The notes: generated from the sequence alone by a model not told the origin. A stretch of DNA of 64,000 nucleotides from Botryllus schlosseri (GCA_051294905.1 CM119371.1:2792001-2856000), one strand, 5' to 3'; shown: positions 7,472 to 50,340, numbered from the stretch's first letter. A program made the numbers and translations.

Positions 7472-7681
7472 TCAACCAAACAATGACTCACATTTCAAAA
7501 CTTCCAACTCAGTATCGGGATCGTTTGCAATCTTCTGGACTTTCTGCAATTCGTCTCCTTTCAACATATGATGTCCCCACTCGTATATCAATGTTACTTT
7601 CTTCAAATTGGAGTTGTTGATGATATACGAAATCTCATCCAGTGAAACACGATACCATAATATGCATCGGATATATTCGAT
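7472..7681 (-). CDS. Module D terminal exon (IEYIRCILWYRVSLDEISYIINNSNLKKVTLI...VLKCESLFG*)
   Basis: ttctcactgcag| phase-0 acceptor, 69 codons then TGA, degenerate LRR-like NLKKVTL; AATAAA on the minus strand at 7413-7418. Confidence 0.58.
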   Translation of the reverse strand: MEYIRCILWYRVSLDEISYIINNSNLKKVTLIYEWGHHMLKGDELQKVQKIANDPDTELEVLKCESLFG

Positions 7682-7775
7682 CTGCAGTGAGAAATTATGA
7701 CTATTAATATTGTGTATTACAATGATGCTTACCACTATTGTTGACCATTTCGCCAGTGGCCATAATGTAGTACAA

Positions 7776-9406
7776 CAAGGGTCGGCAACGTACGGCCCGC
7801 GGGCCGGATCCGGCCCGCCAAGCGAAATCGTCCGGCCCGCGACGAAATAATTAGTTACCACAAGAATACGGCCCGCCGTTTCGTAATGAGTTCCAATCTG
7901 CAGTGCAGCACTGCAGTACTGCTTGGTAAGAATGCGGCATTGTTACGATGTAAGTATCCTACGTCGTATTGGTCTATTGTTACGCCATAAAACTGGTGCG
8001 AAGGCTGTTGATTAGTAGCCTATCTCGTACTAAAAGTAGGAGATGGAGAATGTATGTAGAGTAGACTAGACCAGTGCTTATAAAGCGTGTGTATCGCGCA
8101 ACCATGGGTATACCATACTTTTTAAGGGATTGCCACTCTGATAGGGTGCGACAATAAAGGTGCGGCTCCTCTGCTTCAAAAACGCTTGGAACATCTCAGA
8201 CGCAATGACAAAATCCCAAAGTTTCCGTTTCATTTGAGGTCACCAGCCGCCGTAGGTTAGTCATCTGCAGTTTAATTCACCAGAAGACATTATACGCCAA
8301 GACAGCAAACCTGAATATTGTTTTGGACACAGTGGGGAAAGCTGATTTTGTTTCACAAACTTGATCACCGATAGTTAGCCTACCCCATATATTACTAGAA
8401 GCAGGGAATCAATATGGCGATGTCCTGTATATCTGCCATGTTTGCACATAAGTCCAGCCGCTATCCTTGCACGAGAGTATGAACTGAGAAACGAAATAGC
8501 AACTTTCATTGAAAATACAAACATCGCCGACTCATAATCTTGTCATCGAAAATGGGTATCTAATCTTGCTTTCGTAGTACATTTAACGTCACATCTAACA
8601 AATTGAATTTGCAACTTCAGGAGGAAATAACTGAATACATGAGATGTTGAGGCGCATTCGAAACAAAACTGCGACTCTGGGAATGTCAACAGTAAAAAGA
8701 AAATCATGCTCACTTTCCTATACTGGTGGAGAGTAAACCTCTAGTACCAGCACTATACCTTTGTAACTGTGATACGAAATTTAATTACTGAATTTCCACC
8801 CGCTTTTCCGACATTCGTTCTGTACAAAATAAATTCTGACTACTCAGTACTCGGTTTAATGTGTGCGGCAATACCGTTGCCTGAAAATTTCAAATGAGCC
8901 CTTTTCAAATGCGATGCATTTGAATTGAAAGACAAATTTCATACAAAGAGCATATCGCTGCATGACTTTGACAAAGAGTACGTTCTCGAAATAGGTCTTT
9001 ATCCCAGCTTGACCAACAATGCAAAAGAAATGGCATCGACTTTTGATAGCACGTACGCATGTGAAAAATAGTTTAAAACGATGGAATTCACGAAGAGCAA
9101 GCTAAGATCACGTATTCTAAAATGCCCATTTAGAATGTGGTTTGATTGTTGCTTCATCTGACTTGTTATTAGAAGTTGAAATTCTTTCACAAAGCATGCT
9201 GCGCCAAGTGTCACATCTATGCTGCGTTGTTGAAGTGTAAATACATGTGTTTTGCCCTTTTTGTGATTTGTATGATTGAGATTGCAGCAATATCGGGTAC
9301 TAAACCGATGTGAGCGTTAAATATAGTATCAAGAAAAATTCTGGCCCGCCAAGAAGTTGTGCACTCGAAATTTGGCCCGCGACTAGCAAAAGGTTGCCGA
9401 CCCCTG
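7776..9406 (+). mobile_element. Charlie/Buster (GTF2IRD2-like) hAT relic in the module D intron
   Basis: Ends CAAGGGTCGGCAAC / GTTGCCGACCCCTG, perfect TSD TAGTACAA; frameshifted transposase motifs (LNLQLQ, NKLRLWE, HFP, STYACE, KSKLRSR). Confidence 0.92.
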
Positions 9407-9706
9407 TAGTACAATATACTTTGGATCATAGGTTTGAACGGTTTAGTCTGGCCCGCTAGGCGATTCTGAAAAAATGGCCGTATTATCCGACACATTTCCA
9501 ATACATGTTGAAGTTTCTAGTAGGAAACATTTCCATTCTCTCAAGACAGAAAATGTCGAGCATTTTCGGTTCAGGTCAAATTATAACCACCTGATCGTGA
9601 TGTTGAGATTACACTGTAGTCACCGTCAGCAACAAGTCACTGCCATTGACACTAGTGTTACCATAAGTCATATTTTTTGACTTTTTTGAAAGTGTTCTAG
9701 GAACAC

Positions 9707-10367
9707 TGGGGGTGTTAATATTTTTTTCAATTATATCGGTTTAGATGTCAAATCGTCAGGTTACCTAGAAAAGCGTTGCACACCAATTTTGACTCAACTC
9801 CAGCCAGTGGATCTGAGGTCAGTCAAATTGAAATTTCGGTCACGTTTTGAAATATGACCAATTTGTGACCAATTTTGTCACACTGAAATGACCAAAAATC
9901 CTGTTCCAGGTATGCCCCGAGTGGCAGGCATGTCTTTTTCACATGTTTTTATCTTGATACGGGCCTAGGGTGGGGTTTGGATGAAGACATCGCCAGTGAA
10001 CAAAAAAAAAATATATGACACGGACCACCTGGAAATTGGTCCACTTTATTGAAACCTTTTTCGTTCACTGGCGATGTCTTCATTCAAACCCCACCCTAGG
10101 ACCTTGTCAAGTTCAAAACAAGTGGGAAAGACACCCTGCCACTTCGGGCATACCTGAAACAAGATTTTTGGTCATGTCGGTGTGACGAAATTGGTCATCG
10201 TAAATAGTATTATTTCAAAGATCACTGAAATTCCAATTTGACTGACCTCGGCTTCTACTGGTTGGAATTGAACCGAATTCGGTGTGCAACGTTTTTTTAG
10301 GTAACCTGACGATTTGACAAGTAGGCCGATGAAATTTGAAAAAAGAAGTATTTTTCCAACAGCCCTA
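9707..10367. mobile_element. Fold-back (palindromic) MITE, ~660 bp
   Basis: Long imperfect palindrome centred near 10035 (cctagggtggggtttggatgaagacatcgccagtgaac vs gttcactggcgatgtcttcattcaaaccccaccctagg); TSD aggaacac/aggtacac; relatives at ~41763-42630 and ~50630-51000. Confidence 0.85.
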
Positions 10368-11432: not shown

Positions 11433-11600
11433 CTTCTTTTGCTGACAAGCTTCTAACGTCTTCCTGAATTCATCTGCTTTATCAACGTAAAACATGGCAT
11501 GGATATTGCCAAAAACGGGAATTGCTGTCCTGCGCTCCAAAATTCGGCTGTAATCCTGGACAGGTATCAGGCCATTCACGGCAATATCCAGGAGATCCAA
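11433..11600 (-). CDS. Module D LRR-like exon (LDLLDIAVNGLIPVQDYSRILE...LEACQQKK)
   Basis: cattttag| acceptor and GAAG|gtagta donor; 168 nt, phase 0-0; starts with an LxxLxIxxN motif that continues ...KGIQ in LRR register. Confidence 0.6.
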
Positions 11601-14258
11601 CTAAAATGCGAAAAACAGTTATTCCCAGACTTTAAGATAGCCGCCGTAAAGATGAATGGGTTCGAAGTCATATAAAATCATAGGTAAATATAAATGCGTT
11701 TAAAAAATACTTTGGGAATAGAATCAGGAATCATACTTGATACTTTTTCCAGCAAGTCTCAATCAGCGACCAATCAATGATTTCTTTTTTTTCTGTGCAA
11801 TCGAGCAGGATCTTGCTTATCTGAACACAATATTGATTTCATTACGTAAGATGACGAAATTGTCTCCATGTTTTCCTATATGAATAATTATTCATATCGG
11901 TAAAGTTCAATACTGATTCATTAGAATTCTTCGATTCTCCATAATGCATATGCTACATCGGTATTAGTCTCATTCCAGAGAATTATTTTATCTCAAGTAG
12001 GAGTGAAAGTAGCGATTCACAATTAGGTGAAATATAATTATTGCAGGCCTAGTTTTGCGTAAAAATGAAAACTGCCAAATAGAAGTAGCATGAAATCTTA
12101 ACCACTTGAGTACGTAGGACAAGTAGAATAAATGTACCTGAAGTACTACGACAAGTGGAAGTACTTCGTTACTGATCACCTCTAGATAAATGTTGTAAGG
12201 AACGCAGGATAGCGTATGTAGCGATGTCGCTTATGTTTACGCAAAGGTTGAATTTTACTCGAACAGTATTACATATTGAAAACTGCGTTAAAACTGGCAC
12301 AGACAAAAGCATACTCTATTTCAAATATTATCTACCCGCTTTCGAAACCAGGATTTGGAGCAGGCATTGTTGCTTTTCACCTCAGACTACGCCAATGCTT
12401 GAGCGCACATTACGAGATGATCAGTAACAATCTGCTTCTATTTCTTAAAAGTGGTTAAAATACCGATTTCACTTATGAAATTGATGCAAAATTATGCCTG
12501 AAAGGGGCACTGCACTCTAAAAGTGACGTGGTTTCAAATTGAAGGGCAAAACGAAAATAAAAATTTGGACGTAGCCATTTTCTTCAGAACGCCGCCGTAA
12601 TGGAGCTGGAATTTATTGAAATTTCCACATGACGTTCACGCTCCAGCAGTCATGCAGAGATCGAACTTTATATAGTTGTCAGCCAATGTTATGGAGAAAA
12701 TATGTCGTACACGTCTAGGTGGTTTAGATACCGTGTTCAACGGAAGATGCTCAGTCAGGGACTTATGTCAAAATCGGGCCTAGAGTATTCCATTTCTTTA
12801 GGACAGAAATAAATCATGTCTAACAATTTTTTATATATAAAAAATGTTTTATGCATAAGAATAGGACATGATTTTAGACTACTTTCACGGAAAATTACTT
12901 ACTTTTCACGGATTGGATTTTGAGAAATAGAAAGTAGTTTTGTTGCGTTTGTATCACTGTGATGCGTGAAATCGTCTTAAGAAATCGCAATTGAAATCAT
13001 GGTAACTGTTGAATGTAATTTCCAAGATTATAGAAATTTGCAATAATAATCATTTTTAGTTACTCGCAGAGACTCATCTTTTAATTTACAAAGTAACCGC
13101 TAGCGATAAATCACCAAACACTTACGAACGATCGACCAAAACTACTTTTCGAAACTCAAGGTACTTTTCAAACTTGTCACTTTCTACCTCCGCTTGAAGT
13201 AGTTTTAACATATCGTGGACACTATTTCTACATATGATTGCATATAAAATAAAACATTCCTTCGCTATCAAATTGAACTAATTGCTTTCGGAGTGGTCTC
13301 GAAATTAATGATGACTAGGGAGATTTTTTTACCTGAATAACGCGAGATTTTGACCTGAAAAATCAAAATTTTCACATTTTTTTAGCTTATAAAACATAAT
13401 TTTGACAAAATATTGCCCTTATGGATAGGTGTTTTCGAACATATTGTTATAGTTGTACTACTTATCGTCATTTTTGGTTGGAGCTGTCTGTCCTTACGAA
13501 GTAGTTTTGACTGATCAACTTATTGACTCCGAAACTGACAAATTTTTACAGTAAATTTTTTTTTGTATTTTAACGAAATCTGGACCTATGAAGAATTCCT
13601 AGTCACATCACGCATTATGATAGAAATATTTAAAATTTGTTGTAGTACAACAACGAAAGATACTTTCCTACATTCCCGGGTATAAAGTGTCTGTCCATAC
13701 TAAGTAACTTGTCAAGAATGGAGAAAGAGCGTTCAACAGCAGCAGCTGGCAACATTGAAGTTGTGCGTACACTGCTGGTGACATAGCGTGTTGCTTCATT
13801 TTAACAATGTTGTCTACATCGCAATTTTTATTCATGCGCTTCTTGATATAAGAACCAATGCCCACGCAGTCTTGCATCAGTTAGGATATTGCGGTACGTT
13901 GAGCATAACACCGTGTCAACCTATTTGTTTCATTTGACCGCTTATGATTACCAATGAGCAGACAATGGGCCGTCTACAATGTTAGGCCTATAAAATAGGC
14001 TACAAGATGTAAAATGATAAGTTCAGCGACAGTGCAAACATGTGCGATACAAATGAAATGCAAATAGTTTTTGACTTTGTAAACAATTTTGACAATTTTT
14101 CATACCTTACGCTACAATTTTAACAAAATATTGACCTTTCTAGCAATGTCAAAAAATCGCCCTAATAGTCATAAAATATGTAGAATAGTCTTGAATAGTT
14201 GGTACAGTACTTCGGTACTGTACCTCTGATGTAGATACCGAATACCAGTACCAACAGC

Positions 14259-15237
14259 CAGGGGCGTAGACAGGGGGGTAGAATTGTAGAACGTTCTACC
14301 CCCATTCCAGGCTCGATTCTATCCCGAAAATCCCAAGCCAACGCAATTGCTATAACAACATTTCTTCACGATATCTCCTAATTTCAATTTGCTGTGCATG
14401 ACACCGATCGCCGACGCTGATTACATGCCTTTTTCTCGTTGATCTCTCGTCTACGGAAGCGCGTCTATGCAAGCGTGAAATGGGCATTGTCACATTTTTC
14501 TCTCGACGAGGGTAATCGATCAGCTCAATCCCTTTATTCAGAATGTAGTCGTCGAGCAATAATAACATTTGTCGCGTCGTTCACGTGTTGGTTTTCTCAT
14601 CAACAGAGTATTGTAAACGATAACCAACATTAATAACATGAAAATAACTTATAACTGAATGAAATCATGCTTTAAAGCAATCACATCTGATTCGTGCTTT
14701 GCCAAACTCAAGCCTGTTCCCCAAAACAGCGTGAAGACACAATACATTCGATTCGCATTGTCTTGACCTCAATGACCATCTATATGTCATACTAGATTAT
14801 GCCTTTAGTGATCGGTATCCCACTACGACACATTCAGCCTTCAATAGCCGCGCCGAAACTGGTTTGCGATTCCCTCGTTTTGCGAATAAGTCATTATTCA
14901 CACGCTGGTACAATTAGTATATGCGCCATTTTCGAAATGAATGGAATTAAAACGCCGAGAAGACATTACTCTTACACGCGAATTGAATCATGTCAAAATT
15001 CATGAAGATATAAAGGATTCTGCGCTGTATAGATTGTTTGTGGTGAAATGTTGTTCTTGTATTGTTCAAGGTCGATTACTTATTTGAATGCAAATGAGAT
15101 CTCCTGCACTGTCACAGGATGAGCGCGTGCACATCGTAACTTGACCCCGGTGCAAGTTGTTGATTGCTAACATGATCCCCGTGCAAGCTGTTGATTGCTA
15201 ACTCGCTTTCAGTAATTAGATCCGCCAATTAGTTACG
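14259..15237. mobile_element. Insertion specific to the leftmost unit (CAGGGGCGTAG start)
   Basis: Absent at 20830 and 31260; caacagc on both sides; right terminus eroded. Confidence 0.65.
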
Positions 15238-16156
15238 CAACAGCACAAGAGAAAACGAATTAGCACAGTCCGTTATTGCACACCCGAGCACTCACATCTG
15301 ATACATCAGACACCATTGTCTTACAAAACTGATAGCTTGGATGAAATTTGGTCGCGCGAGAAAACGTAATCAGCATGGATCAACTGAAACCCTGACGTTC
15401 GACAAAGCCGTATATTGTTACTATTAATGTTATCGCTGTCAATATTACTGAATTGACGAATAACACTTGTCAATAAAATGAAAAAAAATTTTTTGCAGGA
15501 CATCTAAGAGTAATTTCTGGGGTTTTCAAGGTTACTGATTACGAATATCAAATTGGTTTTTTCCAGATTGACTTTAGTTTAGAAAATACTTGTACCCCAG
15601 AAAAAAATCCCAAATTACTGCATTTACCCCCTAAATATTTCACTTGGTAATAAGTAAATCGCAGCGTTTTTACTTTTATACTGCCCATAAAGAGAGAATA
15701 GACTATGAAGAACGCTCATGTCGTCATCGGTTATTCATACAATGTGTGCATGACCTGCTGTGAGATCTTTGTTTGTCAAAAAAAGAGTTTGTCAAGCCTA
15801 AAAATTGTACTTTTGCACAACAGAAACGCTTGAGTAAGTAGTGCACGTAAGCAGAATTTGTTTGAGTACTTCGGAAAAGTAGGTGGGTAATATGACAATT
15901 CCACTTATAAAATGATGAAAACTTATCCTAGCATGGGGTTACCATACGTCTTCATTTTTGAGGTTTTTGAAAATGTCCTCCGAGGACGCCAAATTGTCCT
16001 CTTTTTTTGGCAAATCGTCCTCCTTTATATCTTTTACAGCTAAGATGATGTACAGATTTGAGTGAAAATGGGCATAAATGACGCTAAATAGGAAATTTGT
16101 GATTCGATCGAAATTAAGGATCATTTTTTAGTCAACCCACCAAATTCATTTTTAAA

Positions 16157-17086
16157 TAGCTGGTTCGTGGTACAGAACTTGAATATAGCTTTCAATACAA
16201 CATCCAATGTAGCAGAATATTTATTATGCTCGAAGACTTTTCGGGTGCCTCTTTTCATGAGTTAACGGCACACTAAAGGGATTGAAACAGATTTAAAAGT
16301 AAAACTAAAAAGGCAAAGTATGACGCAACAATCAAAATCACAGACCATGAAATTCGCATTGTACCAATGGCAACAATAACAAATTATGAAGTATACGGAC
16401 ATACGGTACTATAGTATCAGCGCAATTTGTAAATAAACAGTTACACGCACGAAACAACACGCACTAATGAGAAATTTGTTGGTTACAGAGAAAATCTTTT
16501 TGTCTGCATAAAATAGGTTTGTTCAACTGAATAATAGTAGACTCCAACACTTTTAAATGAAACAAAGACCTACCACGCACAATGACAGTGAAGATATTGT
16601 CATCATAGTGCTGTGCACAGGCGAGGTTTTCACTCAGATGCTGACCGATTGACGAAGCATATGCTTGGTAATCGTCATAGCAGTCTGTTTCGGCAGCCAA
16701 TTTGCACTGACGTGCGAGCTCCGTGCGATCATTTGCGCATGTTTTTGACCGAATCAATTTTGGGATATGCTGCTTAATACGCTCAAACAATCTTTGAGAT
16801 GTACGTCCTACATACCTACTATCACAGTGGCAATTGTTGTTATTCAGTTGAACAAACCTATTTTATGCAGACAAAAAGATTTTCTCTATAACCTACAAAT
16901 TTCTCATTAGTGGGTGTTGTTTTGTGCGTGTAACTGTTTATTCACAAATTGCGCTGCTACTATAGTACCATAAGCCCGTATACTTCATAGTTTGTTATTG
17001 TTGCCTTTGGTACAATGCGAATTTCATGGTCTGTGATTTTGATTGTTGAAGTCATACTTTGCCGTTTGGGTTTTGCTTTTAAATCA
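16157..17086 (-). mobile_element. Penelope-like retroelement relic: GIY-YIG endonuclease fragment with an inverted terminal copy
   Basis: Minus-strand CDSRYVGRTSQRLFERIKQH...SSIGQHL...LKVLESTIIQLNKPILC; 16290-16535 is repeated inverted at 16838-17086. Confidence 0.85.
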
Positions 17087-18275
17087 AGAAAATCAAATAG
17101 TGGAATGGGTCAAGCATGGCTCAACGTTGACGTTTACAGCAAACTTAAAACTATATATATTGTATAAGAAAATTAACTCTAGCCCACTTTTTCTATTCTA
17201 TACTCCGATAACTCCCGCAAACCATCCTCTTGAACAAACAGCTCTTCAATCAATTTGACAAATTTTGCATCGAAAAGGTCGCTGACATATTTCAGTGCTG
17301 CCAGGGTACGAACATTTTTGAAAGATAGACTGGAATCCTGTGAAAATCAAGTGTTGTTAGTTACGTCACAATCACCCAACAACATGACCTAAGATATAGC
17401 CTACGTCCAACCATAAGAGATTAATGTCACGACTCATGACTACTATGGACAAGGCGATGAGATCGCGTTATAAAAATATATCTTGCAAAACGAGTCGACT
17501 GAATTTGCACACATGAACCATGCAAACGCAACATGAATTATATTTACCGAGACTTTCGTGGAGTAAATAACACTCTCCATATCTATTTTGCTCGAAGCAT
17601 GACAGAATTCTGGTCCCTCCCAAAAAACAAAGCCTGAAGTTCTTTATGTTGGTTTCTCTCTCGGTCTATTATTGGAAGTACGCAATACTTTGTTTCATTG
17701 TATTGCAATCGCTTAGTTATTTGAATATAATTTTATTTATTTGAATTGAGAAAAATTAACTATTCGATTCCAACTCGCACTCATCTCACAAGTAGGGCAC
17801 GATATTGATGGTGTCAAGTACCGCTTACTGTCACATTAGTGTTTTACATAAATCAACGCAAAACTGTTTCCAGAATATACCTTGAACGCCCCCACCCCCA
17901 CCACAGAATTTTTCAGTAAACAGTTCAGAATAATAAAAAATATTGCTTGTCTGTTGAAAATTGCGAGAAAAAAACCGCAATCCTTCGATTTTTAATGGAT
18001 GTAATCTAAAATCCTGAATGTACTTGAAAATCAAAGTACAGTGCGACAATTTTTTTTATAAATTCAGTAGGCAAAAAACTCGTTACTTATAAAATCATCA
18101 CAAGTTGTTAGCTTACTATTCTCAACAAAAGCATCTCGTCCTCATGACGCTCATATTGACGTCATAATCTACATCCTGGCTATACTAGACCGCAGAGTCA
18201 TCGCTTCATGTGCCAAGTGTTGTTTACAGCTTGATGCATAGTAAAGTCAGTCAAATGATCGTAATTTCAGTCCAA

Positions 18276-18425
18276 TCATTGATATGGACTCGTTATCGAA
18301 GTTGAATCAACTTGATATCCAACCTTGGAGTCAAAGTGACCTTTAATCCCGTTACCACTTATGTTGATGACATCTTCTTCGTTCTTCAATTCAACCCACC
18401 GTCCATCTACAGACAGCTTGACAAC
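18276..18425 (-). CDS. Module C terminal exon (VVKLSVDGRWVELKNEEDVINISGNGIKGHFDSKVGYQVDSTSITSPYQ*)
   Basis: attcag| acceptor, 49 codons then TGA; ATTAAA on the minus strand at 17991-17996. Confidence 0.72.
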   Translation of the reverse strand, partial: VVKLSVDGRWVELKNEEDVINISGNGIKGHFDSKVGYQVDSTSITSPYQ

Positions 18426-19262
18426 CTGAATATTGTTCAGATGAGAAACTTGAGATTGTGCATTGTATCGCTATTCCACCAAATATCTTGACGTCATATC
18501 GCACATATAGTGACCACCGCAGCATCACAAATCATCATCCGCTATACGTCATCGACACGGGTCACTGATTCTACTGACGTTTATGCTGGTGGTGGCATTT
18601 TGCGACATTTGCGAGCCGATATCCCCGAAAACACTCGTTTATATGAGGTAGGAAGTATATTGGCGGAATCAGGAGAAAAAGTCTACGAATTCAGACGAAG
18701 TTATTTTGGTCAATATAGTGGATCGTAAGCACCCGAAACCGTATTCCTGCATTTACACGAATTCACGAGCGATTTTCGTCTTTTCAATCGGAACGCGAAA
18801 TTGGACAGTTTGCTATTGTGAGCATGTACTTCAAAATAACATGGACATCATAGTGACATCTATAATACGGAGCAAATAAAGAAATGAAGGTAAGAACGCC
18901 GTTATAATCAGGAAATAATTTCGCGATGCGATGTCAGACCTCATTGTGTTGGCCTATTACTAATCAGATCCGCGCTTTCGTGATTAGGACTTATATTCAT
19001 CAGTTGCGTAATAATTCATGTCGACGTGCGCACTCCGGTATTGTCGCGATGCTAGCAATGCTGCTTATTATTGCAGTGACACGCGGCGTTTGATTACCTA
19101 AACGGCCCTAGGTTATTCAAAATATCGATGCACGTATTCTGAATCCATTGAATTTCTTCAACCGGAGACCTGACGCGTTCCAAGCCTCCGCATACCCACA
19201 TAAGATTACGGTTCGGTGTTTATGCTTGTTAGTACACAACTAAATCCTAGAATCGAACTCAC

Positions 19263-19367
19263 TTCCCAATCCAATTTTCCAGATAGCGATTCAATCCGAT
19301 GATGCCCGAGAAATGAACGTAGCGCTGTTGCTGAGAAGTTGTTGTAACGCAAATCCACTTCCTTCAC
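19263..19367 (-). CDS. Module C LRR exon (VKEVDLRYNNFSATALRSFLGHHRIESLSGKLDWE)
   Basis: 105 nt, intact ttccag| and GAA|gtgagt, open frame; paralog of the A and B exons. Confidence 0.75.
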
Positions 19368-20210
19368 CTGGAACGATTGAAATATTTTATGAAACGTTGA
19401 AGAGAACTAAGTGTGAAAATAAGTATGAAATAAAGTGACAAAAATTAAATCACATGAGACGTAATCTATTTAGGTTACTGTCTGTGGATCTTCGATATAG
19501 CCTACATTACAATGCGATATCCTTAGATCATGCTATCGGTAATATCACATTCGCTGTCGGTTTGTACTTCCGGAACATGAGTCGTTTCCAAATATACATA
19601 ATTATAGAGCGCCCTATAGTCGATATGTAGTCCATTATCGCAGATACTATAGAAGTCCTCTTTGTGATTCAAATATGTGAAGCTCGTCACGAAACGTATC
19701 TTTTTTCGTGCATGGCGACAAGTCACACTTCTCGAGGGGATTATCGTTTTCGCGCATTCGATATCGTTTCTGCATCCGATAAATTCATACAGATCAAAAT
19801 CAAAATCATTCCATATTCCGACGGACGTACGATCAACTTATACACACGGCTCATCGTGGCGCTAGCGAGATTGCAATCAAATTGAACTAATTGCTTTCGG
19901 AATGGTATCGGAGTTAATGATGACTAGGGCGATTTTTTTACCTGAATAACGCGAGGATTTTGACCTGAAAAAATTTTTCAACTTAAAAAACTTAATTTCG
20001 ACAAAATATTGCCCTTATGTATGTAAATTAGGTGTTTTCGCACATATTTTCATAATTGTACTACTTATCGTCAGTTTTGGTTGGAGCTGTCTTCCTTACG
20101 AAGTAGTTTGACTCAACAACTGAAAATATTTTACAGGAAAAAACTTCATTTTAACGAAATCTGGACCTATGAAGAATTCCCAGTTACATGACGTATTATG
20201 ATAGAAATAA

Positions 20211-20485
20211 TTAAAATGTGTTGTTGTACATCCAAAGATACTCTCCTACATTCCCGCGTATAAAGTGTCTGTCCATACTAAGTAGCTTGTTAAGAATGAA
20301 GAAAGAACGTTCAACAGCAGCAGCTGGCAACACTGAAGTTGTGCGTACACTGCTGGTGAGAGAGCGTGTTGCTTCATTCTGACAATGTTGTCTACATCGC
20401 AATTTTTATTTTGTGCCCTTCTTGATATAAGAACCAAGGCCCACGCAGTCTTGCTTCCGTTAGGATATTGCGGTACGTTGAGCAT
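20211..20485 (-). pseudogene. hAT-like transposase C-terminal relic carried in each duplication unit (also 13650-13900 and 30690-30964)
   Basis: Frameshifted YAQLQCCQ / AAVERSFxILNKLLxxDRHF, resembling the hAT dimerisation motif. Confidence 0.6.
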
Positions 20486-35057: not shown

Positions 35058-35513
35058 CTGAATATTGTTCACATGTGAAACTTTGAGATCGTGCATTGTA
35101 TCGCTATTCCACCAAATATCTTGACGTCATATCACACATATAGTGACGACCGCAGCATCATCGATCATCATCTGCTATACGTCATCGATACGGGTCACTG
35201 ATTTTACTGTCGTTTATTCTGGTGGTGGCCTTTTGCTACAATTGCGACCCGATATCCCCGAAAACACTCATTTATATGAGATAAGAATTATATTGGCGGA
35301 ATCAGTTATTTTGGTCAATATAGTTGATCGTAAGCACCCGGAACCGTATTCCTGCATCGACACGAATTCACGAGCGATTTTTATCTTTTTAATTGGAGCG
35401 CAAAATTGGACAGTTTGCTATTGTGGGCATGTACTTCAAAATAACATGAACATCATAGTGACTTCCATAATACAAGGGAAACAAAACACTGCAGTCCAAA
35501 ATGCTGTTATAAT

Positions 35514-37903: not shown

Positions 37904-38409
37904 TAGGGCTAGCCACAGTGATTCGAATACTCGAATCTGAATCGAGTATTAACATTATTGATTCGAGGCGAGTAGTAAAATACTACTTTTCGAGTAGGCT
38001 ACTGAAATTATACTGAAAGTTGATTTACTAACGAGAATTATACCATAGTTTTGATAAACTTTACCACTGAGTAAGCCTTGAAACCTTGATTGGCCGTGTC
38101 GCAACATACGAGATATAGTGCAAAGCTACGAACGTTGCTGGAAATAACACATTTCCGAAGTCATGACCATCCCATATAACACTGTCAAGCAGTGCAATGA
38201 AAACGGTATGGTCGAAAAAACATTAAAGTATCTTTAATGTGACGGACAATAGGTGTTATGTTCTTTATGGTGGCATAAAAAGTAGCCTACACATTTGAAT
38301 TTTTGTCATGGTACATTGTGTTGTGATGTCATCATGATGATACTTGACTCGAAGCGTAATAAGTGATTCAGAATCGAATCACTCAGGTACTCAATTTTGC
38401 CCAGCCCTA
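37904..38409. mobile_element. TAGGGCTGGGCA-family MITE interrupting the Harbinger nuclease
   Basis: TAGGGCT...AGCCCTA ends; TSD gtgcctag/gtgcatag. Confidence 0.85.
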
Positions 38410-39001
38410 GTGCATAGTAATATTTCTATATTTGTCATGGCGGAATGTCAGCCAGTTTTTGCGTAGCATACCACTGCAAAAAGGTCAGACAAATTTGGTC
38501 TTGAATCATTATGTCAGAAAAAGAAGTCTGAAAGACCAATTGTTCTTGCCAAGTAGGCTACTTTCTGTCTCAAAAGTAAGACCCAAATTGATGGAAAATA
38601 GACTCAAATCTGGAAACTGAGCAGTCATCATAATGACTTGACTCGAGTCATAGAACCATGAATCGAACTCGGCGCTCTGCTCGATGAGTTGGACTCGGAT
38701 TTGACTCGGTGGTAAATTGAAAATGACTCGACTTGAATCTAGTCAAAACTATTAAAGTGGGATCGACTTGTGACTTGGTTACAGCCCTGCTCACTTATTT
38801 TAATGAGACCAAATTTGTATATTTTTGTAGTGTAGTCAGACATGTACAATGTACATCAACCTACTCATTTAGTTACTTTTAAGTAAGTAGTTCTAGTTAG
38901 GGATTTGAAAAAGTGAATAGTTTCTGGTTCCAGTTGCGGATATTTGAAAGTGAGTAGTTCCAGTTCTAATTGCAGATTTTGAAAATTTGATAGTTCTAGT
39001 T

Positions 39002-39674
39002 CAGGGCCGGCCAACCCGTGGCCCGCGAGTGAATTTTCGAAATTAGTAGTATTATCAAAAATGCATTGCACAGATTGTGTATTTGCAAGGCCAATCAAAA
39101 ATTTGATTAGTCTGGCCGCAACACTTGAGATGTGATGACTGAAATATCAGTTCCGACGCATTGGTAGATCTATGAGCCAGTCACATTTTGGTAGATCTTC
39201 GTACACTACAATAAAGCAGAATACTTTGAGATAGATTTATCAAAAGTAAAAATTTTCTACACGGTTAGCGCAACATGTTGTCACTCGATTTGTTGCTTTT
39301 AATATTGTTACCCCTTTGTGAAAATGAAAGAACGCCTAATGTATCAGATTGAGTCTAACAATATTCTCGGTTACAAGGCAAAGTGTCGTTGAACATATGC
39401 GACCTTGCGTTTGCGCTCTCAGAAAGACCGTCGACTTTGAAACCTAGGCTCAAAATGATTGCCGCATGTTGGACGAAGCTTTCGATATCGATATGTTCAG
39501 GTGCCGAATAGTCCAGTCCTTGCAAACTGAGCCCAGCGATATACACCAGCTTCCAATATAGTCCAGTGACAATATTATTAATTTATCACTTCAAAAAATG
39601 TTCGCGGCTAGTGGCCCGCAAAATAGTTCGTCAATCGAATGTGGCGATTTGGCTGAAAAGGTTGGCCACCCCTG
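39002..39674 (+). mobile_element. Charlie/Buster-type hAT deletion derivative nested in a MITE inside the Harbinger
   Basis: Ends CAGGGCCGGCCAACC / GGTTGGCCACCCCTG; 8-bp TSD TTCTAGTT. Confidence 0.85.
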
Positions 39675-42070
39675 TTCTAGTTGCTAGTTTAAAAAATTGA
39701 GTTCTAGTTAAAATTGCGCATTTTGGAATTCCAGTACTTTGTACAAGTCTGAGCGCTGTGGGTGGATAAAAAATTACCACAGCAACATTTGTACCAAACA
39801 TGCATTTGCTGCATTCAAGTTTTTCAGGATGACTTCATGATTGGGAGCCAGAGGGTTGCGTACTAGCCTACATAACTGATGACGCAGCCTATCCCATTCA
39901 GCCGCGGCTCATGAAGCCTTTTCCCTGAAACACAGAGCATAAGCTAAAGCTAGTTTCAAATATGTAATACAAATTTCCTTTCTGCTACCCTTAAAATTCA
40001 CAATTGCTTTTTCAGAAACTTAGCAAAGCACACTTGAAGGTTGAAAGATTTTGGTCGACTGAAGGCGCGGTGTTCGGCTTTGCTCAGAAACTGCAATCCA
40101 CTAAGGGCAGAATGATACAGAGGATGGTATACGCAATGAAGACAAGACCTGGTGGTGATCCAAGTATCGCTGGCCCAGACGTCGGAAATGCCCTGTGTGA
40201 CTTTCTCAATAAACAATGCTCCAGCTTAACCAGATGTGTTTGTGCTGTTTCATTTTATTCATGAGAGAAACTATAACTTAATGCACACTTGCACAGTTCC
40301 ACCTTTTTCATCAGTATCCTCCATCTAGACCTGCGAAAAGATCAGATTAAGTTACACTTGCCTAACATTGCATAACAAAGGAATGACTTGGTTGCAACAA
40401 GAAAATGAAGGCATAGGGTATAACCAAATTATGGCTTGGATGATGTACGATGGTTTACCAGCCCGTTGGTACAATTTCAATTTTGGTTAGTGATCCCGAG
40501 CTAGGGACATCATTCTCTGCTGCCACTATCAAGGCAGATGTTACTGAATCCCCTTTTCAGTAGGCGTATACCACGGTGACTAACCTACGCACAGCATATC
40601 CGTGGTTAGAAACTTGCCTTTGATGTAACAAATTTGGTAAGGGTTAAGATCACCTACCAAATTAGTGTTGAAGTCCTAAAGTTTTCAGGCAACTCACCCA
40701 ATACTGCATCATTTGGAGATGGTGTTCTACCTTTTTAGCCGTGCTGCTCTGTTTACAAAACCTCAGAAAAAAGAAGCTGACTAGTAGTCAGTGACTAGGT
40801 ATTGTGGGCTTACATAATATAAATCCAAGAATAATGCATTCCCAACACCATTACACAAGAAGACCAAAATGCCGCAGGTAGCTGACCTCGAAATACAAGC
40901 AGCCTGAATGAACAGCGCGTTACCGTAACTAAAAGTTTGATTGACAGCGTTCCGGGAACCCAGCTGCGCCATTCGTGTTCATACTCAGTCGGTCCCGTAA
41001 AAATCTCCGAAAATAAGCGCGTTCATACCGCCCCGAAACACCAGTGTTATGTTCACATAGAGGGGTTCCGGTAAACATTTTCGAGAAATGTTATTCCCGG
41101 AACCCCGGTATGAAAAGGGCCCTAGTTATCAGATTCTTTAACGTCAAAGGCTCGTATAAATCCAAAATATGCACAATAAAACGCATTTTAATGCTAATCT
41201 AATTTTCAACTGTCCTTATTTTTGGGTCAATATCGATGGCAACCCTGCCTATAGTTATGAACAGTGAGCAATTTCGCTATGCGATGTCAAACTCATTGTG
41301 TTGGCCTGAAAATCAGATACGCACTTTGTTGATTAGGAGTAGTAATATTCAGCTGCGCACTAATTCATGTCGACATGCACACTCCTGAATTTTGACAATG
41401 CTAGCAATTTTACTTGTTAATCGCGCAGTGCATTCTGCAGCGGAACACGGCGTTTGATTACGTGAATGTGACGTAATTTGTCAAAATATCGATGCACAAT
41501 TTGATCACCGCCAGACTGATCGATCACACCAATATGGAATTTTACTACATTGCATTCATTTGATTCATTGTCAATTTACTAGAGAGCGGATTTTTGTTGA
41601 CGAGGTCGTGACATTAGATCAGTGCTCTTATTGCTGCCTTACGCTACATAGTTAACTATTTCAGTGAATTGGATTACATAGCTCGATATTATTGAGACAG
41701 TGCTGATATTAAAACATCATATCAGTGGGTAAATACTGTACATCTCTGGGATGAATGCAGAGTAGGGCCGCTCAAAAAAATGTTCTTCAGATTCCACTGG
41801 CTATGTGATAAAATTGATAGGTTGGTTAAAACGACGCTATAAACCAAATTTGCCTTCAAGTCCAACCAGTAGAAGCGAGATACTTGCCATAGAAAGTTTT
41901 GAAATTATCATTAAAAAACACACAAATAAACCAAAATTTTCTGTCAACCCCATAAAATTGTTAGGCTATCAGTAGAGATGATGCATACCAAATTTGGCTA
42001 AATTCCAACCACTAGAAGCGAAGTTATTGCAGTAGAAAAATTTCCAATTCCATGATTTTATAGGAAATAA

Positions 42071-42305
42071 TTATAGCTTTCAATACAACATCCATTGTAG
42101 TACAATATTTAAACTCAAATACTTTCCGGCACTTTAAAGGGATTTAAATGGATTTAGAAGCAAAACCAAATCTGTTTAACTCCCTTCAGGGTGCCGTTAA
42201 CTCTTGAAATAGGCAACGAAAAAGTCTTTGAGTTTAATAAATATTCTACTACAATGGATATTGTATTGAAAGCTATATTCATGTTCTGTACCACGAACCA
42301 GCTAT
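42071..42305. mobile_element. Small fold-back made of the same Penelope-like 3' end, inside a MITE (~41763-42630)
   Basis: tatagctttcaatacaacatcc...ggatattgtattgaaagctata inverted arms; matches 16160-16300. Confidence 0.7.
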
Positions 42306-42776
42306 TTGATTAAATAATTAAAGAGTTAGCTACCGTAAAATTATTTTATTCGAATCCAGATTTTTTCTGCCGCAATAAATTCGCTTGTATTGGTTTGAAT
42401 TGAGCCACATTTGGTGTGTATCGTCTCTACTGACATCCCAACAATTTTATGTTGTTGACAGAAAAATTTCAAAATTTAATTTTTTAATGATAAATCCAAA
42501 ATTTTCTTTTTCAATAAAATCGCTTCTACAGGTTGCAATTGGCCCAAAGTTGGCTTGGAGCGTTGTTTTCACCAACCTAATAATTTTGTAACATAGCCGA
42601 AGAAATCGGAAGGTTTTTTGAACAGCCCTGATGTTGAAAATGTATATGTATAGTGCTTTCTATCACGACTATGACGTCACCAATCAAGTGCGATTGTCAT
42701 GTCACAAGTCTCCGCATACCCACATAAAATTATAGTGGCTTGTTAGTACGCAACTGAATCATAGAATCGATCTCAC

Positions 42777-42881
42777 TTCCCAATCCAATTTTCCAGATAG
42801 CGATTCAATCCGACGATGTCCGAGAAGTGAACGCATTGCTTTAGCTGAGAAATTATTGCGACGCAAATCCACTTTCTTCAC
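42777..42881 (-). CDS. Module A LRR exon (VKKVDLRRNNFSAKAMRSLLGHRRIESLSGKLDWE)
   Basis: 105 nt, phase 0-0, ttccag| and GAA|gtgaga; LxxLxLxxN-like motif continues in frame from ...KGIQ. Confidence 0.8.
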
Positions 42882-43517
42882 CTGGAATGATGAATGAAAT
42901 ACGAATACAATGTCTGCCAATATCATGTCAAACTAACAGAGCTTTGCACAGACGTATTCAGGGCATATTTTGGAAGCTGAGTATGTTCAGCATTATTGTG
43001 ATCCGCATGATAAAGGCAAACGACCGTAGGTTTAGAGCCACAGTCTTTTACTAATCCATTCAAACGGCTTCAATCAATTCTAGGAATACACCGTACTCTA
43101 TAATTGAGATTACGATTTGATTTCAGTAAATGACTGCGAATTTTATTCACTTTCAATTTAATTTTTGCAACCGAGGCGGCCAAAGTAGGATCAACTGTAA
43201 TTTGTAATTGAGCTGCATGTAATTATCAATATTTTTTCATATTACTTTAATTGTCATTGCAGCGTTTCTATTCTGTGTAATTGTAATTGTAATTTGATAA
43301 AAAATTTACTAATTACAATTTCACTTGCATTGTTATTGAAACCTGACAATCACAACATAAAATAATTAGCCCATTAACATGGGTGTTCTATGCGTACCTC
43401 GTTAACTAATTCAGCCATACTAAACTGTCAGTCTACTAAACTGTTCCCCATAGGCCAACTTCAGCTCCAATAGAAAACTTGGTGGATTACAATATAAGTT
43501 ATTGAACAAAATCTTAC

Positions 43518-46761: not shown

Positions 46762-47066
46762 TTGTATCCCTTTTTCCAGACTCCCGGTAATGATCGCCAA
46801 AAGATCATCATTAATGTTGCAGTTGCGTAAATTCAAGCAATCCAGACTTTCACTCCTTACTGCAAGCGATCCGACGATATGAGCCTCATCGCGACTCAGT
46901 GAGATCTTGGATGCATCGATATCGGAAATTCGTCTCATAAGAGCGTCGTCTCCTGATTCATAGATTGCTGTATACAGTTCCATGCGAACGTGCTTGTCCT
47001 CCTTGTTCTTGAGTTGCGAACGTATCGATCCACCAAGAATTTGTTTTTTCAGCGACTGATTTGAGA
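46762..47066 (-). CDS. NLR exon: helical linker plus first leucine-rich repeats
   Basis: ttgacag| acceptor (phase 1) and ATACAA|gtgagt donor (phase 0). Encodes MELYTAIYESGD (HD2-like) and LDCLNLRNCNINDDLLAII (ribonuclease-inhibitor-type LRR). Confidence 0.88.
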
Positions 47067-47823: not shown

Positions 47824-48100
47824 CGGGGGAGATAATGTAGTGGTTACGATAAGCACCCACCAAGCAGACGAACCGGGTTCGATTCCCGTCGGAGGTTTAG
47901 CTGGGGTCCTCTTCCCCTGACGTTGCCGTTCTTACGGTGACAAAAAAAGCGCAGAAAAAGACCCGACGAAGAAAGCACTCACAAGGAATGGAAAGAACTA
48001 ATAGAAAGGGCCGCGGCATCCAAAAAAAAAACATCAAGAAGCACTGACATCGGACACTCTAGGCCGAGGAGGATGTTAGAGTAAAGGCTCGTTACTGATG
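47824..48100 (+). mobile_element. tRNA-derived SINE or tRNA pseudogene head
   Basis: A box TAATGTAGTGG (47833) and B box GGTTCGATTCC (47876); no clean cloverleaf; 3' end approximate. Confidence 0.6.
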
Positions 48101-48235
48101 CGTTTCGCTCGACATCCTCCTATCTGTTCATGACATCGCATTATGTCTTATCATATTGTGTGTGACTAGATCAGATGAAGAATATAACCCAACGATGCTA
48201 TGTTATCTAACCTATCAGTGCCTATCAGTGCAGTC

Positions 48236-48770
48236 GGGGGGGGGGGGGGATGTCAGGCAGGCATCAATGTCAGTTTGTTAAAAGCGATATGTAGTATACT
48301 GCTAAAAAAAGTAGGAAAATCTGGCATAGGCATGAAAAGTGTCAGTGAAAATATCACCGTAATATAATTCTGTTTTGTGGGTTTCGCAATTTACAAATGA
48401 CCAATACGCTTTACTGCATCCAATCCGCCTTGAAATTGAAGCGATAATGTTCTCAGTAAACGTAATCAGGAATTAAATATCATACTACTGCAGTCAATCA
48501 AGCGAGGGGGGGGGGATGTCAGGCAGGCATCAATGTCAGTTTGTTAAAAGCGATATGTAGTATACTGCTAAAAAAGTAGGAAAATCTGGCATAGGCATGA
48601 AAAGTGTCAGTGAAAATATCACCGTAATATAATTCTGTTTTGTGGGTTTCGCAATTTACAAATGACCAATACGCTTTACTGCATCCAATCCGCCTTGAAA
48701 TTGAAGCGATAATGTTCTCAGTAAACGTAATCAGGAATTAAATATCATACTACTGCAGTCAATCAAGCGA
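48236..48770. repeat. Near-identical tandem duplication of ~265 bp
   Basis: poly-G+atgtcaggcaggcatc...cagtcaatcaagcga occurs twice; the differences seen are homopolymer lengths. Confidence 0.92.
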
Positions 48771-48897
48771 AGGCATCGGGATAAATATAGCCTACTACGG
48801 TAACATACGTTTCATACCTATTTGTTTTACAGCTTCCAGGGTCTTGGAAGTAGCGGGAATACGATCATGAAAAACGATATTCTCCGACGAGACTCAC

Positions 48898-50340
48898 CTT
48901 CATAAAGATTATCCGGTGTTTCGTCATAAATGAGGCCGCAAACGAATCTGCGGACGACCGACCATCGCTCTTTGTGCAAGTGTATAGAGTTGAAGCTAAT
49001 GAACTTTGTAAGAGTCATTTCGACAATAAGTCCCGCTGCGAGGAATTCCTGGAGACTTTGATGGCAGAAGAAGAAAATGAAACTGCCATCCAACACTTTA
49101 GAACTAAGGAGGTTATTTCCTGGAACCTTCATCATGAGATCTCGAACTTCTTCTTTTGAAAGTCCAAACTTATTCAAATGATTTTCTGAGAATGTCACTC
49201 TCCCTTCTTTCATGCCACGATATGCCATCGCTTTCAATTTATTGATGACTCCGGCGATAGCATCAGCTTGAGTAATATTGTTCACGCTGCTTAGATTGGA
49301 CATAATTTTTTTGTACAGTCCTGTAACCGTCTTAGGAGGAGGTTTGTCCGGATTCTTGGCCATGATCACTGCGGTTAAGACCAGAAAAACGGGAATGGAA
49401 ACTAAATTGATCAGCCTTGGTGACATCGTTTCTATCTTCTTCCATGCTTCATCCCCATGTCGACGTAACAAAAGCACAAAAAGTGTCTTTGCGTCATCTA
49501 GAGTCAGACCAGAAAGTGTGATGATGTCGGCTGGTCGGGCTTTCACGGGTAAATCCGAGACTTGGAATTCTCGGGAAGAGATGACGATCTTTGTATCAGC
49601 GAGTAGATTACGTGAGAGGATGTTGTACATGATCGTTTTTGCTTTGGCTTTACTATACGGATTTATGTCCTCGTTACCATCTCTTTTGATTTTCCAAGTA
49701 GCCTGATCCAAGCCGTCGAAAAATAAAACTGCTTCTGATTGATGTTCGAGCAACCACCAATACGCATAATCCTCGTCGATCTCGTTCTGAAAGAGGCCAT
49801 CGAAAAGAAATTTAGATGGTTTTATGAGTCCTTTATGTCGCATGCCTTTTATTTCTATATAACGTATCAATTTGTACTTTAGCTGAGAGGGGCTTGCAAT
49901 GGTTTCTGTATTCGTAAGTGAATCGCCTACAGCTTTTCTAGCGATTCTACGCATGAGAGTGGTTTTCCCAGATCCCGCAGACGCCACAATGGCGGTGATA
50001 GAACTTTTCTCGTTGATGAATTGTTCCAAAACTTTATCTAGCTCGATAAATTTGTTGTCGTCAACGTTTTGTCGGAGGAATCCAAACTCTTTTCTGAACT
50101 CATTTTTCACCACCTCTTTCTTTTTCCAGAAGAATAGTTTCCTTTTTACTGCGACTTCCATTTCGTGTACCTCTTCATAATTGCCTTTGAAATATTCTGA
50201 CTTAGTGACTCTTCTCATCTGGGGATGTACTTGGAAATTAGGCTTGCTGAGGTCGTCGGCGCCGATGTCTTCGAGAATTTTGTCCGCCGTCTTTTGGTAC
50301 GCATTGTCGTTTATGCATTTTATCAGGGCTGAAGCTTTTT
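48898..50340 (-). CDS. NACHT NTPase exon of an NLR-like protein
   Basis: Open 1443-nt exon (ttttgcag| acceptor, GAAG|gtgagt donor) overlapping the 463-aa ORF. Walker A ASAGSGKTT, Walker B VLFFDGLDQ, sensor-1 IVISSR, IPVFL motif and winged-helix FFFCHQSLQEFLAA. Confidence 0.93.

What the first reader, a model, noticed from the sequence alone, without database searches (positions are those of the whole stretch)
7472..50340. NLR gene with one constant NACHT region and an array of four interchangeable C-terminal LRR modules
Seen: the last shared exon ends in phase 0 (...KGIQ|gt at 46762). Downstream lie four exon pairs (A 42777-42881+34911-35057; B 29708-29812+27347-27457; C 19263-19367+18276-18425; D 11433-11600+7472-7681). 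Each has an intact AG acceptor, a phase-0 start that continues the LxxLxLxxN register, a GT donor, a stop codon and a candidate poly(A) hexamer. There is only one NACHT exon. Established: NLR LRR regions act in ligand sensing and autoinhibition, and exon arrays diversify receptors in Dscam and clustered protocadherins. Inference: one locus makes several NLRs with different sensor ends by alternative splicing/polyadenylation. The shared part has only about two LRRs, so the cassette would supply much of the sensor.
Basis: partly seen in the sequence, partly recalled or inferred. Interest (0 to 1): 0.9.

Follow-up and report, generated by a model that had tools for sequence, protein, structure and literature searches.

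The report
Ascidian NLR with triplicated LRR exons
A sea-squirt immune-receptor (NLR) gene has its short repeat-coding tail copied three times in tandem, which is more likely ordinary growth of the repeat region than a set of interchangeable sensor ends.

Summary
There is one NACHT exon (48898-50340, minus strand) and one following exon (46762-47066). Downstream lie three homologous exon pairs (A, B, C) and one unrelated pair (D), all with AG/GT sites and phase-0 starts. A, B and C belong to a roughly 10-kb tandem duplication that is about 13% diverged, so it is not an assembly artefact.

Alternative use of the modules is not shown. The stop codons lie about as far past a conserved phase-0 GT as chance predicts. 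The A-C poly(A) hexamers are no more than chance would give. All exons are symmetric. The closest named relatives (Styela clava NLR models) carry 2-6 units of 72-88% identity in series within one protein.

My best reading (0.45) is that these are tandemly duplicated LRR exons of one array. The rivals are alternative last exons (0.20) and an A-only gene with B and C as relics (0.25).

RNA reads from four runs were too sparse over the gene, and no NLR joint was among the 15 listed. Interest is modest unless junction reads show alternative use.

The parts
48898..50340 (-). NACHT exon (Walker A GSGKTT, Walker B-like LFFDGLDQ); acceptor ttttgcag|, donor ATGAAG|GTGAGT in phase 1
   Evidence: Pfam NACHT 1.7e-13. 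34-35% identity to 5 Styela clava NLR models, tblastn E 8e-74 to 6e-82. Splice sites read. It is the only copy in the window.
46762..47066 (-). Shared post-NACHT exon, 305 nt, phase 1 to phase 0. It holds about two LRR-like turns and has donor CAA|GTGAGT.
   Evidence: It aligns to the region behind the NACHT module in 5 of 5 Styela models, E 1e-5 to 2e-11. In 9 of 9 short paralogous ORFs fetched, the exon ends at the same ...I[Q/H]|V(GT) position.
42777..42881 (-). Exon A1, 105 nt, phase 0/0, VKKVDLRRNNF... (LxxLxLxxNxF); donor GAA|GTGAGA
   Evidence: The Styela alignment runs from the shared exon into the first 20 residues of A1.
34911..35057 (-). Exon A2. As a terminal exon it is 147 nt including the stop. 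As an internal exon it would be 34956-35057 (102 nt, phase 0/0, candidate donor AAG|GTTGGA).
29708..29812 (-). Exon B1, 105 nt, phase 0/0; donor GAA|GTGAGT
27347..27457 (-). Exon B2. A 13-nt deletion shortens the tail. The internal form would be 27356-27457 (102 nt, candidate donor AAG|GTGATT).
19263..19367 (-). Exon C1, 105 nt, phase 0/0; donor GAA|GTGAGT
18276..18425 (-). Exon C2. The internal form would be 18324-18425 (102 nt, candidate donor AAG|GTTGGA).
11433..11600 (-). Candidate exon D1, 168 nt, phase 0/0. It starts LDLLDIAVNGL; donor AAG|GTAGTA.
   Evidence: It has no Pfam family and no meaningful Atlas neighbour. Whether it belongs to the gene is inferred only.
7472..7681 (-). Candidate terminal exon D2 (69 codons plus stop); AATAAA at 7413-7418, 54 nt after the stop
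   Evidence: It is the end of a 156-codon open frame. Its Atlas feature neighbours are LRR families at 0.84-0.87, which is a lead only. It is not significantly like the Styela C-termini.
12908..42901 (-). Tandem segmental duplication carrying the three exon pairs. Unit A is about 29830-42901, unit B about 19385-29829, and unit C runs from 19384 down to about 13264. Homology of A to B and C starts only 17-20 nt upstream of exon 1.
   Evidence: Self-BLAST; alignments

Best explanation
This is an ordinary member of an expanded ascidian NLR family. Its short LRR-coding 3' part grew by tandem duplication of a roughly 10-kb segment that carries two symmetric, phase-0 LRR exons of 105 and 102 nt.

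Most likely the six copies are successive exons, or skippable cassettes, of one LRR array. That array runs shared exon - A1 - A2 - B1 - B2 - C1 - C2 and ends in D1-D2, whose stop is followed by the only well-placed AATAAA. On this view the 'stops' behind each exon 2 are simply the first in-frame stops of the following introns.

Shown: the exons, phases, splice dinucleotides, the duplication and its age. Inferred: the splicing order, use of the weak exon-2 donors, and that D belongs to the gene.
For: 1. Every boundary is phase 0 and the exon lengths are multiples of three, so any series stays in frame.

2. All three exon-2 copies keep AAG|GT at exon nt 102. In B2 this survives a 13-nt deletion. 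The stop in A2 and C2 lies 15 codons past that GT, which matches the chance mean of 15.5.

3. Poly(A) hexamers behind A2, B2 and C2 lie at +280 to +299. The chance of one within 300 nt is 0.39. D2 has AATAAA at +54.

4. The closest named relatives (Styela clava models, 919-1341 aa) continue in frame past the region matching A1. They hold 2-6 tandem 55-aa LRR units of 72-88% identity in series. That is the same similarity as A/B/C here, 66-83%.

5. Under neutral decay, both ORFs, all 4 splice dinucleotides and freedom from indels would survive in both B and C with p of about 0.017-0.032. The longest three-way invariant runs sit on the exon-1 3' end plus donor (42 nt; the next longest are 27 and 26) and on the exon-2 acceptor (26 nt). 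So the lower copies look maintained.

6. Strict exonic modularity of NLR LRRs, with the border at a fixed place in the beta-strand, is established for vertebrate NLRs (PMC6642158, passages read). Here each exon begins with the LxxLxL strand.
Against: The exon-2 donors in A2 and C2 (AAG|GTTGGA) are weak compared with the GTGAGT-type donors of the other exons and of the paralogues. The exon-2 acceptors have poor pyrimidine tracts.

The exons are no better conserved than their flanks. Exon 1 differs by 9.5-16.2% and exon 2 by 10.8-19%, against 13.0-13.6% in the 3' flank. dN/dS is 0.47-0.86. So purifying selection is weak at best.

D shows no significant similarity to Styela C-termini, to any Pfam family or to a Styela LRR-unit profile.

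No junction read was seen for any model. The Styela proteins are annotation models, not checked cDNAs.
Confidence: 0.45

Rival explanations
1. A, B, C and D are alternative last-exon modules. Each mRNA joins the shared exon to one module and is polyadenylated behind it, so one NACHT region gets several C-terminal ends.
For: Each module starts with an intact phase-0 acceptor and reaches a stop. Tandem duplication of a gene's last two exons creates exactly this layout. The lower copies look maintained rather than decayed (p about 0.02-0.03; invariant runs on the splice sites). The exon-2 candidate internal donors are weak, which fits terminal use.
Against: The stops and the A-C hexamers are at chance expectation. 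B2's tail is frameshifted. A/B/C differ little in protein, at 66-83% identity, so they add little diversity. The resulting proteins would have only 3-4 LRRs, whereas relatives have long arrays in series. A duplex scan with the 42-nt invariant exon-1 element (the only element tried) found no docking/selector-type pairing above shuffled controls: best -33.1 kcal/mol, and 5 of 10 shuffles did as well or better.
Confidence: 0.2
2. The gene ends at A2. B and C are untranscribed or unused relics of a partial 3' duplication lying beyond the gene's end, and D is unrelated open frame.
For: Exon divergence equals flank divergence and dN/dS is 0.47-0.86. B2 has a frameshifting deletion. B1 and C1 inherited only about 17-20 nt of the original upstream intron. 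D has no detectable homology to NLR proteins. D1 has no recognisable family or Atlas neighbour.
Against: Intactness of all ORFs, splice dinucleotides and frame in both B and C is unlikely under neutrality (p about 0.017-0.032). The 42-nt invariant run at the exon-1 donor is about 1.5 times the next longest. An NLR ending at A2 would have an unusually short LRR region compared with the 919-1341-aa relatives.
Confidence: 0.25
3. The triplication is an assembly artefact, caused by haplotype or repeat mis-assembly.
For: None beyond the repeated layout.
Against: The copies differ by 13.0-13.6% in their flanks and by many indels. Their introns are of very different length (7.7, 2.25 and 0.84 kb) with different inserts.
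Confidence: 0.02

Closest known systems
Styela clava NLR gene models (NLRC5-like / NLRP-like, LOC120326636 and relatives; P0001-P0005, P0064)
   Same: They share the NACHT module at 34-35% identity and the helical/LRR exon behind it. The sequence continues into a VKK.xL..N.F strand as in A1. Their LRR region is built of tandem units 72-88% identical to each other.
   Different: Their units are 55 aa and of the canonical ribonuclease-inhibitor type, with 2-6 in series. Here the unit is 35+34 aa, spread over about 10 kb per copy. No Styela-type unit or C-terminus is detectable in the window. Whether the copies here are read in series is not known.
Exon-modular LRR domains of vertebrate NLRs (NLRP3, 171-nt exons; Hoss et al. 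2019, PMC6642158, passages read)
   Same: The LRR exons have constant phase, with the border at a fixed place in the beta-strand. This makes exon duplication and exon skipping frame-neutral.
   Different: There each exon holds two LRRs of 28/29 aa, and alternative splicing skips an internal exon. Here the exons are 105/102 nt. The open question is terminal versus internal use.
Alternative-exon arrays (Dscam mutually exclusive clusters, clustered protocadherins) and alternative last exons or premature polyadenylation of plant NLRs (PMC8116057, seen in a search listing only)
   Same: Homologous exons lie in tandem behind or before constant exons.
   Different: One-per-transcript use is not shown. 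A scan with the 42-nt invariant exon-1 element found no docking/selector-like RNA pairing above shuffled controls. Protocadherin variable exons are 5' exons with their own promoters. What is said here of Dscam and protocadherins is recalled, not read.
LRR exon shuffling in brown-algal NB-ARC/ROCO candidate receptors (PMC3341825, PMC11378527; search listings and abstracts only)
   Same: Single-LRR exons of fixed phase are multiplied in tandem in candidate immune receptors.
   Different: The lineage and NTPase class are different. No shuffling between loci could be examined here because no genome is held.

Membership tests
NLR (NACHT-LRR) protein | NACHT NTPase domain with Walker A and Walker B | tested here: met
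   Pfam PF05729 at 1.7e-13, 51.2 bits against a cut-off of 26.7. GSGKTT and LFFDGLDQ are read in the ORF. The alignment to Styela NLRs covers 90-92% of the exon.
NLR (NACHT-LRR) protein | Winged-helix / helical domains behind the NTPase | tested here: inconclusive
   NOD2_WH scores 22.4 bits, just under its 23.1 cut-off. NLRC4_HD2 scores 15.2 against 33.1.
NLR (NACHT-LRR) protein | C-terminal leucine-rich repeats | tested here: inconclusive
   No Pfam LRR family hits the shared exon, A1, A2, D1 or D2. LxxLxLxxN strands can be read in the shared exon, exon 1 and D1. The shared exon aligns to the first LRR-like turns of the Styela NLRs. D2's Atlas neighbours are LRR families at 0.84-0.87, a lead only.
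NLR (NACHT-LRR) protein | N-terminal effector domain (CARD, PYD, Death, TIR...) | not tested
   Minus-strand open frames upstream of 50340 were listed but not searched. None is long.
Array of alternative (one-per-transcript) exons or alternative last exons | Several homologous exons or modules in tandem next to constant exons | tested here: met
   There are three homologous exon pairs and one different pair.
Array of alternative (one-per-transcript) exons or alternative last exons | Each mature RNA contains only one of them | tested here: inconclusive
   Four RNA runs were laid on 27150-47149. None of the 15 listed joints was an NLR joint, 101 more were not shown, and depth was very low. C and D lay outside the stretch.
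Array of alternative (one-per-transcript) exons or alternative last exons | Each module has its own functional stop and cleavage/polyadenylation site | tested here: inconclusive
   Stops are present but at the chance distance from a conserved GT. The A-C hexamers lie at +280 to +299, where the chance of one is 0.39. Only D2 has AATAAA at +54.
Array of alternative (one-per-transcript) exons or alternative last exons | Competing RNA pairing (docking/selector), for the Dscam type only | tested here: not met
   The best duplex of the 42-nt invariant exon-1 element (the only element tried) along the pre-mRNA was -33.1 kcal/mol, and 5 of 10 shuffled elements did as well or better.
Tandemly duplicated LRR exons read in series | Symmetric exons of one phase, with the border at the same place in the repeat | tested here: met
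   Exon 1 is 105 nt, phase 0/0. Exon 2 is 102 nt up to the conserved AAG|GT, phase 0/0. Each starts with V[VK]K[VL]xL.
Tandemly duplicated LRR exons read in series | Usable donor behind every internal copy | tested here: inconclusive
   Exon-1 donors are GTGAGT or GTGAGA. Exon-2 candidates are GTTGGA (A2, C2) and GTGATT (B2), which are weaker than the family norm.
Tandemly duplicated LRR exons read in series | Copies present together in one mRNA | not testable with these tools
No transcript-derived protein of this gene is in the protein collections.

The most novel reading that the evidence does not exclude
One NLR locus uses a tandem array of 3' exon modules as alternative last exons. A single NACHT engine would then be fitted with different short LRR ends by the choice of splice acceptor and poly(A) site. 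That would be a receptor-diversifying layout not described for animal NLRs in the papers my three searches listed.
Probability: 0.2. Interest if true: 0.75.

Novelty: new member of a known kind. Interest (0 to 1): 0.3.

Why it matters
If the copies are read in series, this is a caught-in-the-act example of how NLR repeat regions grow by segmental duplication of phase-matched exons. It is useful for annotation, because a gene predictor could easily stop at the first in-frame stop behind A2, but it is not surprising.

If the copies prove to be alternative ends, this would be a new way for an invertebrate chordate to diversify an intracellular immune sensor from one locus. That would deserve follow-up across the many paralogues this species evidently has.

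Tried and rejected
RNA evidence:
- The look-up of sequencing runs listed no RNA holder. Only 'RNA?' guesses with word shares of 0.05-0.18 appeared, plus unindexed raw RNA runs of the same species label.
- I laid X18, X20, X22 and X23 on 27150-47149 at 90% likeness. Summed depths for X18 / X20 / X22 / X23 were:
  - shared-exon bin: 0.91 / 0 / 0.13 / 4.29
  - A1 bin: 0.91 / 0.20 / 0.62 / 2.04
  - A2 bin: 0.65 / 0.37 / 0.27 / 1.60
  - B1 bin: 0.52 / 0 / 0 / 1.62
- Neighbouring intron bins reach similar values; for example 29818-30484 is 1.40 in X23. So these depths cannot be assigned to exons.
- Nearly all reads laid fell on repeats. My choice of 90% likeness probably raised that background.
- The joint table showed 15 rows, none from the NLR, and 101 were hidden. 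C and D were outside the 20-kb limit.

Genome and earlier notes: no whole genome is held, and no earlier notes exist.

Protein searches:
- No identical or transcript-derived protein was found. The NACHT exon gave 15 longer and 31 near-length hits, the best at 50% identity.
- The shared exon gave 22 hits, and the short ones are genomic ORFs.
- The exon-2 alignment gave none. So I could not test whether the tail behind exon 2 is conserved in paralogues.

D exons: my impression by eye that D2 resembles the Styela C-terminus was not borne out. blastp gave E of 0.3 or worse, and the C-terminus profile did not list D2 up to E 100.

Other negatives:
- A Styela LRR-unit profile found no further LRR exons in the window; the best E was 0.35.
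- The docking/selector duplex scan with the 42-nt invariant exon-1 element was no better than shuffles.
- Rfam gave 0 matches in the window.
- Structure prediction of spliced models was not attempted, because only unspliced window translations may be sent.


Full report
WHAT IS THERE

The window is AT-rich eukaryotic DNA, with GC of 0.34-0.46 per 2 kb. On the minus strand lies a 515-codon open frame, 48827-50374. It matches Pfam NACHT at 1.7e-13, 51.2 bits against a cut-off of 26.7.

Its best named relatives are five Styela clava NLR models at 34-35% identity, followed by Clavelina lepadiformis proteins at 26-29%. So the window comes from an ascidian. Nothing closer than 50% identity is in the protein collection, and no whole genome is held.

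The exon proper is 48898-50340. Its acceptor is ttttgcag| and its donor is ATGAAG|GTGAGT in phase 1. This fits the phase-1 start of the next exon, 46762-47066, which ends in phase 0 at ...EKGIQ|GTGAGT. That exon aligns to the stretch directly behind the NACHT module in 5 of 5 Styela models. In 9 of 9 short paralogous genomic ORFs I fetched, the reading frame runs on with a valine (GTN) at exactly this point, so the donor position is a family feature.

Each has an AG acceptor, a GT donor after each first exon, only frame 0 open, and the stated stops. tblastn with each peptide finds exactly three copies of the exon-1 type and three of the exon-2 type, and no more. There is one NACHT exon and one shared exon.

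A, B and C are parts of a tandem segmental duplication. Examples are 19181-22340 against 29632-32782 (87.4% over 3.2 kb), 17086-18912 against 33703-35517 (83.4%) and 25717-27577 against 33348-35178 (82.7%). A partial fourth spacer lies at 13264-15989.

Homology of unit A with B and C begins only 17-20 nt upstream of exon 1. The 3' flanks of exon 2 differ by 13.0-13.6% in every pair, with about 0.009 indel events per nt. Intron 1 measures 7.7, 2.25 and 0.84 kb in A, B and C. This is old, real duplication and not an assembly error.

The case for 'interchangeable ends' rests on each module having a stop and a poly(A) hexamer. Both are weak.
- All three exon-2 copies carry AAG|GT in phase 0 at exon nt 102: GTTGGA in A2 and C2, GTGATT in B2.
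- In A2 and C2 the stop lies 15 codons past that GT. In this base composition the mean distance to a first in-frame stop is 15.5 codons.
- The hexamers behind A2, B2 and C2 lie 280-299 nt after the stop, and the chance of one within 300 nt is 0.39. Only D2 has AATAAA at +54.
- B2 carries a 13-nt deletion that frameshifts the supposed tail but leaves the AAG|GT at nt 102.

So the same sequence reads equally well as three pairs of internal, symmetric exons (105 + 102 nt, all phase 0) followed by D1-D2.

COMPARATIVE EVIDENCE

The Styela alignment runs from the shared exon through the first 20 residues of A1 (...KVKKFVL-GNEFNAEIFASV against ...QVKKVDLRRNNFSAKAMRSL), and the Styela proteins then go on for 200-600 residues.

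Their LRR regions consist of 2-6 tandem 55-aa units. Within one protein these are 72-88% identical to each other. That is the same range as A/B/C here: 77-83% for exon 1 and 66-83% for exon 2.

This family therefore habitually multiplies LRR units and, at least in the annotation models, reads them in series. For vertebrate NLRs, strict exon modularity with a fixed border in the beta-strand is documented (PMC6642158, passages read). Here each exon likewise begins with the V-x-K-[VL]-x-L strand.

ARE THE LOWER COPIES ALIVE?

The signals are mixed.

Against constraint: the exons are no better conserved than their flanks. Exon 1 differs by 9.5-16.2% and exon 2 by 10.8-19%, against about 13% in the flank. 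dN/dS for the two exons combined is 0.47 (A-B), 0.73 (A-C) and 0.86 (B-C).

For constraint:
- A simulation used the flank rates, with 6.65% substitutions and 0.0045 indels per nt per lineage. One copy kept both ORFs, all four splice dinucleotides and its frame with probability 0.13-0.18. Two copies did so with probability 0.017-0.032.
- The longest three-way invariant run in the aligned units is 42 nt, covering the 3' end of exon 1 and its donor. The next longest are 27 and 26 nt, and the 26-nt run spans the exon-2 acceptor.
- Gene conversion could also produce such runs.

I read this as modest evidence that B and C are still used.

RNA

No run is indexed as an RNA holder. I laid four raw RNA runs of the same species label on 27150-47149, which covers the shared exon and modules A and B.

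The gene is barely expressed in them. The summed depth of the shared-exon bin is 0.91, 0, 0.13 and 4.29 in X18, X20, X22 and X23. The A1, A2 and B1 bins in X23 are 2.04, 1.60 and 1.62, but a plain intron bin (29818-30484) gives 1.40. So these numbers cannot be assigned to exons.

The joint table lists 15 rows, all from repeats or from other transcripts, and 101 rows were not shown. C and D lay outside the 20-kb limit. The lay therefore decides nothing, and only one lay was allowed.

PAIR D

D1 (168 nt) and D2 (210 nt) join in phase 0 and end in a stop with AATAAA 54 nt later. D2 closes a 156-codon open frame, one of only 15 frames of 120 codons or more in the window.

D1 opens with LDLLDIAVNGL. 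D2's nearest Atlas clusters are LRR families at 0.84-0.87, which is a lead only. But D has no Pfam family, and D1 has no meaningful Atlas neighbour. Neither blastp nor a profile of six Styela C-termini links D to NLR tails. That D belongs to this gene is an inference from strand, phase and position.

VERDICT

- Best reading (0.45): a normal NLR whose LRR part grew by tandem duplication of phase-matched exons. The copies are successive or cassette exons of one array that ends in D.
- Rival (0.20): true alternative last exons.
- Rival (0.25): a gene that ends at A2, with B and C as relics.
- Rival (0.02): assembly artefact.

The weak GTTGGA donors of A2 and C2 and the neutral-looking substitution rates are the main points against my reading.

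The finding is a new member of a known kind. It becomes interesting only if junction reads show one module per transcript.

Noticed in passing
window 44917-45237 (+): A tRNA-derived SINE-like element with a tRNA-like head and an A-rich tail sits in the intron between the shared exon and A1. RNA reads pile up to a depth of about 2000. Template-switch oligo sequence lies before 44917 and poly(A) after 45237, and most reads only partly fit. They probably come from many genomic copies. There is no Rfam match.
   Followed up: partly
window 40239-40328 and 40696-c.41150 (-): An abundant spliced, polyadenylated minus-strand RNA lies inside the A1-A2 intron. The joint 40328/40696 (CT..AC on the + strand, i.e. 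GT..AG on the minus strand) is seen in 92-955 reads per run. A T-run lies before 40239 and AATAAA just upstream. There is no open frame above 75 codons. It could be a non-coding RNA or a repeat transcript. A same-strand poly(A) site inside the NLR intron could matter for the NLR's own processing.
   Followed up: partly
window 37830-40013 (+): A GT..AG joint on the plus strand skips 2182 nt, with 15-61 reads per run. This is a second spliced transcript, antisense to the NLR intron.
   Followed up: no
window 42777-42818 and the same place in B1 and C1: A 42-nt run covering the last 37 nt of exon 1 and the first 5 nt of the intron is identical in all three copies, synonymous sites included. The flanks differ by about 13%. 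Possible causes are a splicing enhancer, gene conversion or another RNA-level constraint. No complementary partner was found.
   Followed up: partly
window 48240-48508 and 48506-48773: A 269-bp direct tandem repeat at 99.3% identity lies in the intron between the NACHT exon and the shared exon.
   Followed up: no
window 58626-61936 (+): Three open frames carry ZSWIM3_N (2.3e-11), ZSWIM1-3 RNaseH-like / MULE transposase (2.3e-39 and 3.3e-17) and a PHD finger (7.2e-05). This is a MULE-type transposase or a domesticated ZSWIM-like gene upstream of the NLR.
   Followed up: partly
window 2331-3330 (-): Two roughly 500-bp tandem copies at 80% identity contain open frames weakly similar to D1: 31% over 48 aa, E 0.005 within the window. 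The 143-codon frame at 2815-3246 has no Pfam family.
   Followed up: partly
window 16290-17085: Inverted repeat arms at 16290-16534 and 16840-17085 (93% identity) flank or overlap a 132-codon minus-strand frame at 16464-16862 that has no Pfam family. It is probably a transposon insertion in the spacer behind module C.
   Followed up: no
window 30485-32485 and 35154-36487: Reads on the spacers of units A and B carry fixed differences from the window at many places, with nearly all reads showing the other letter. They therefore come from other copies of repeat families, and the duplicated spacers are largely transposon-derived.
   Followed up: no
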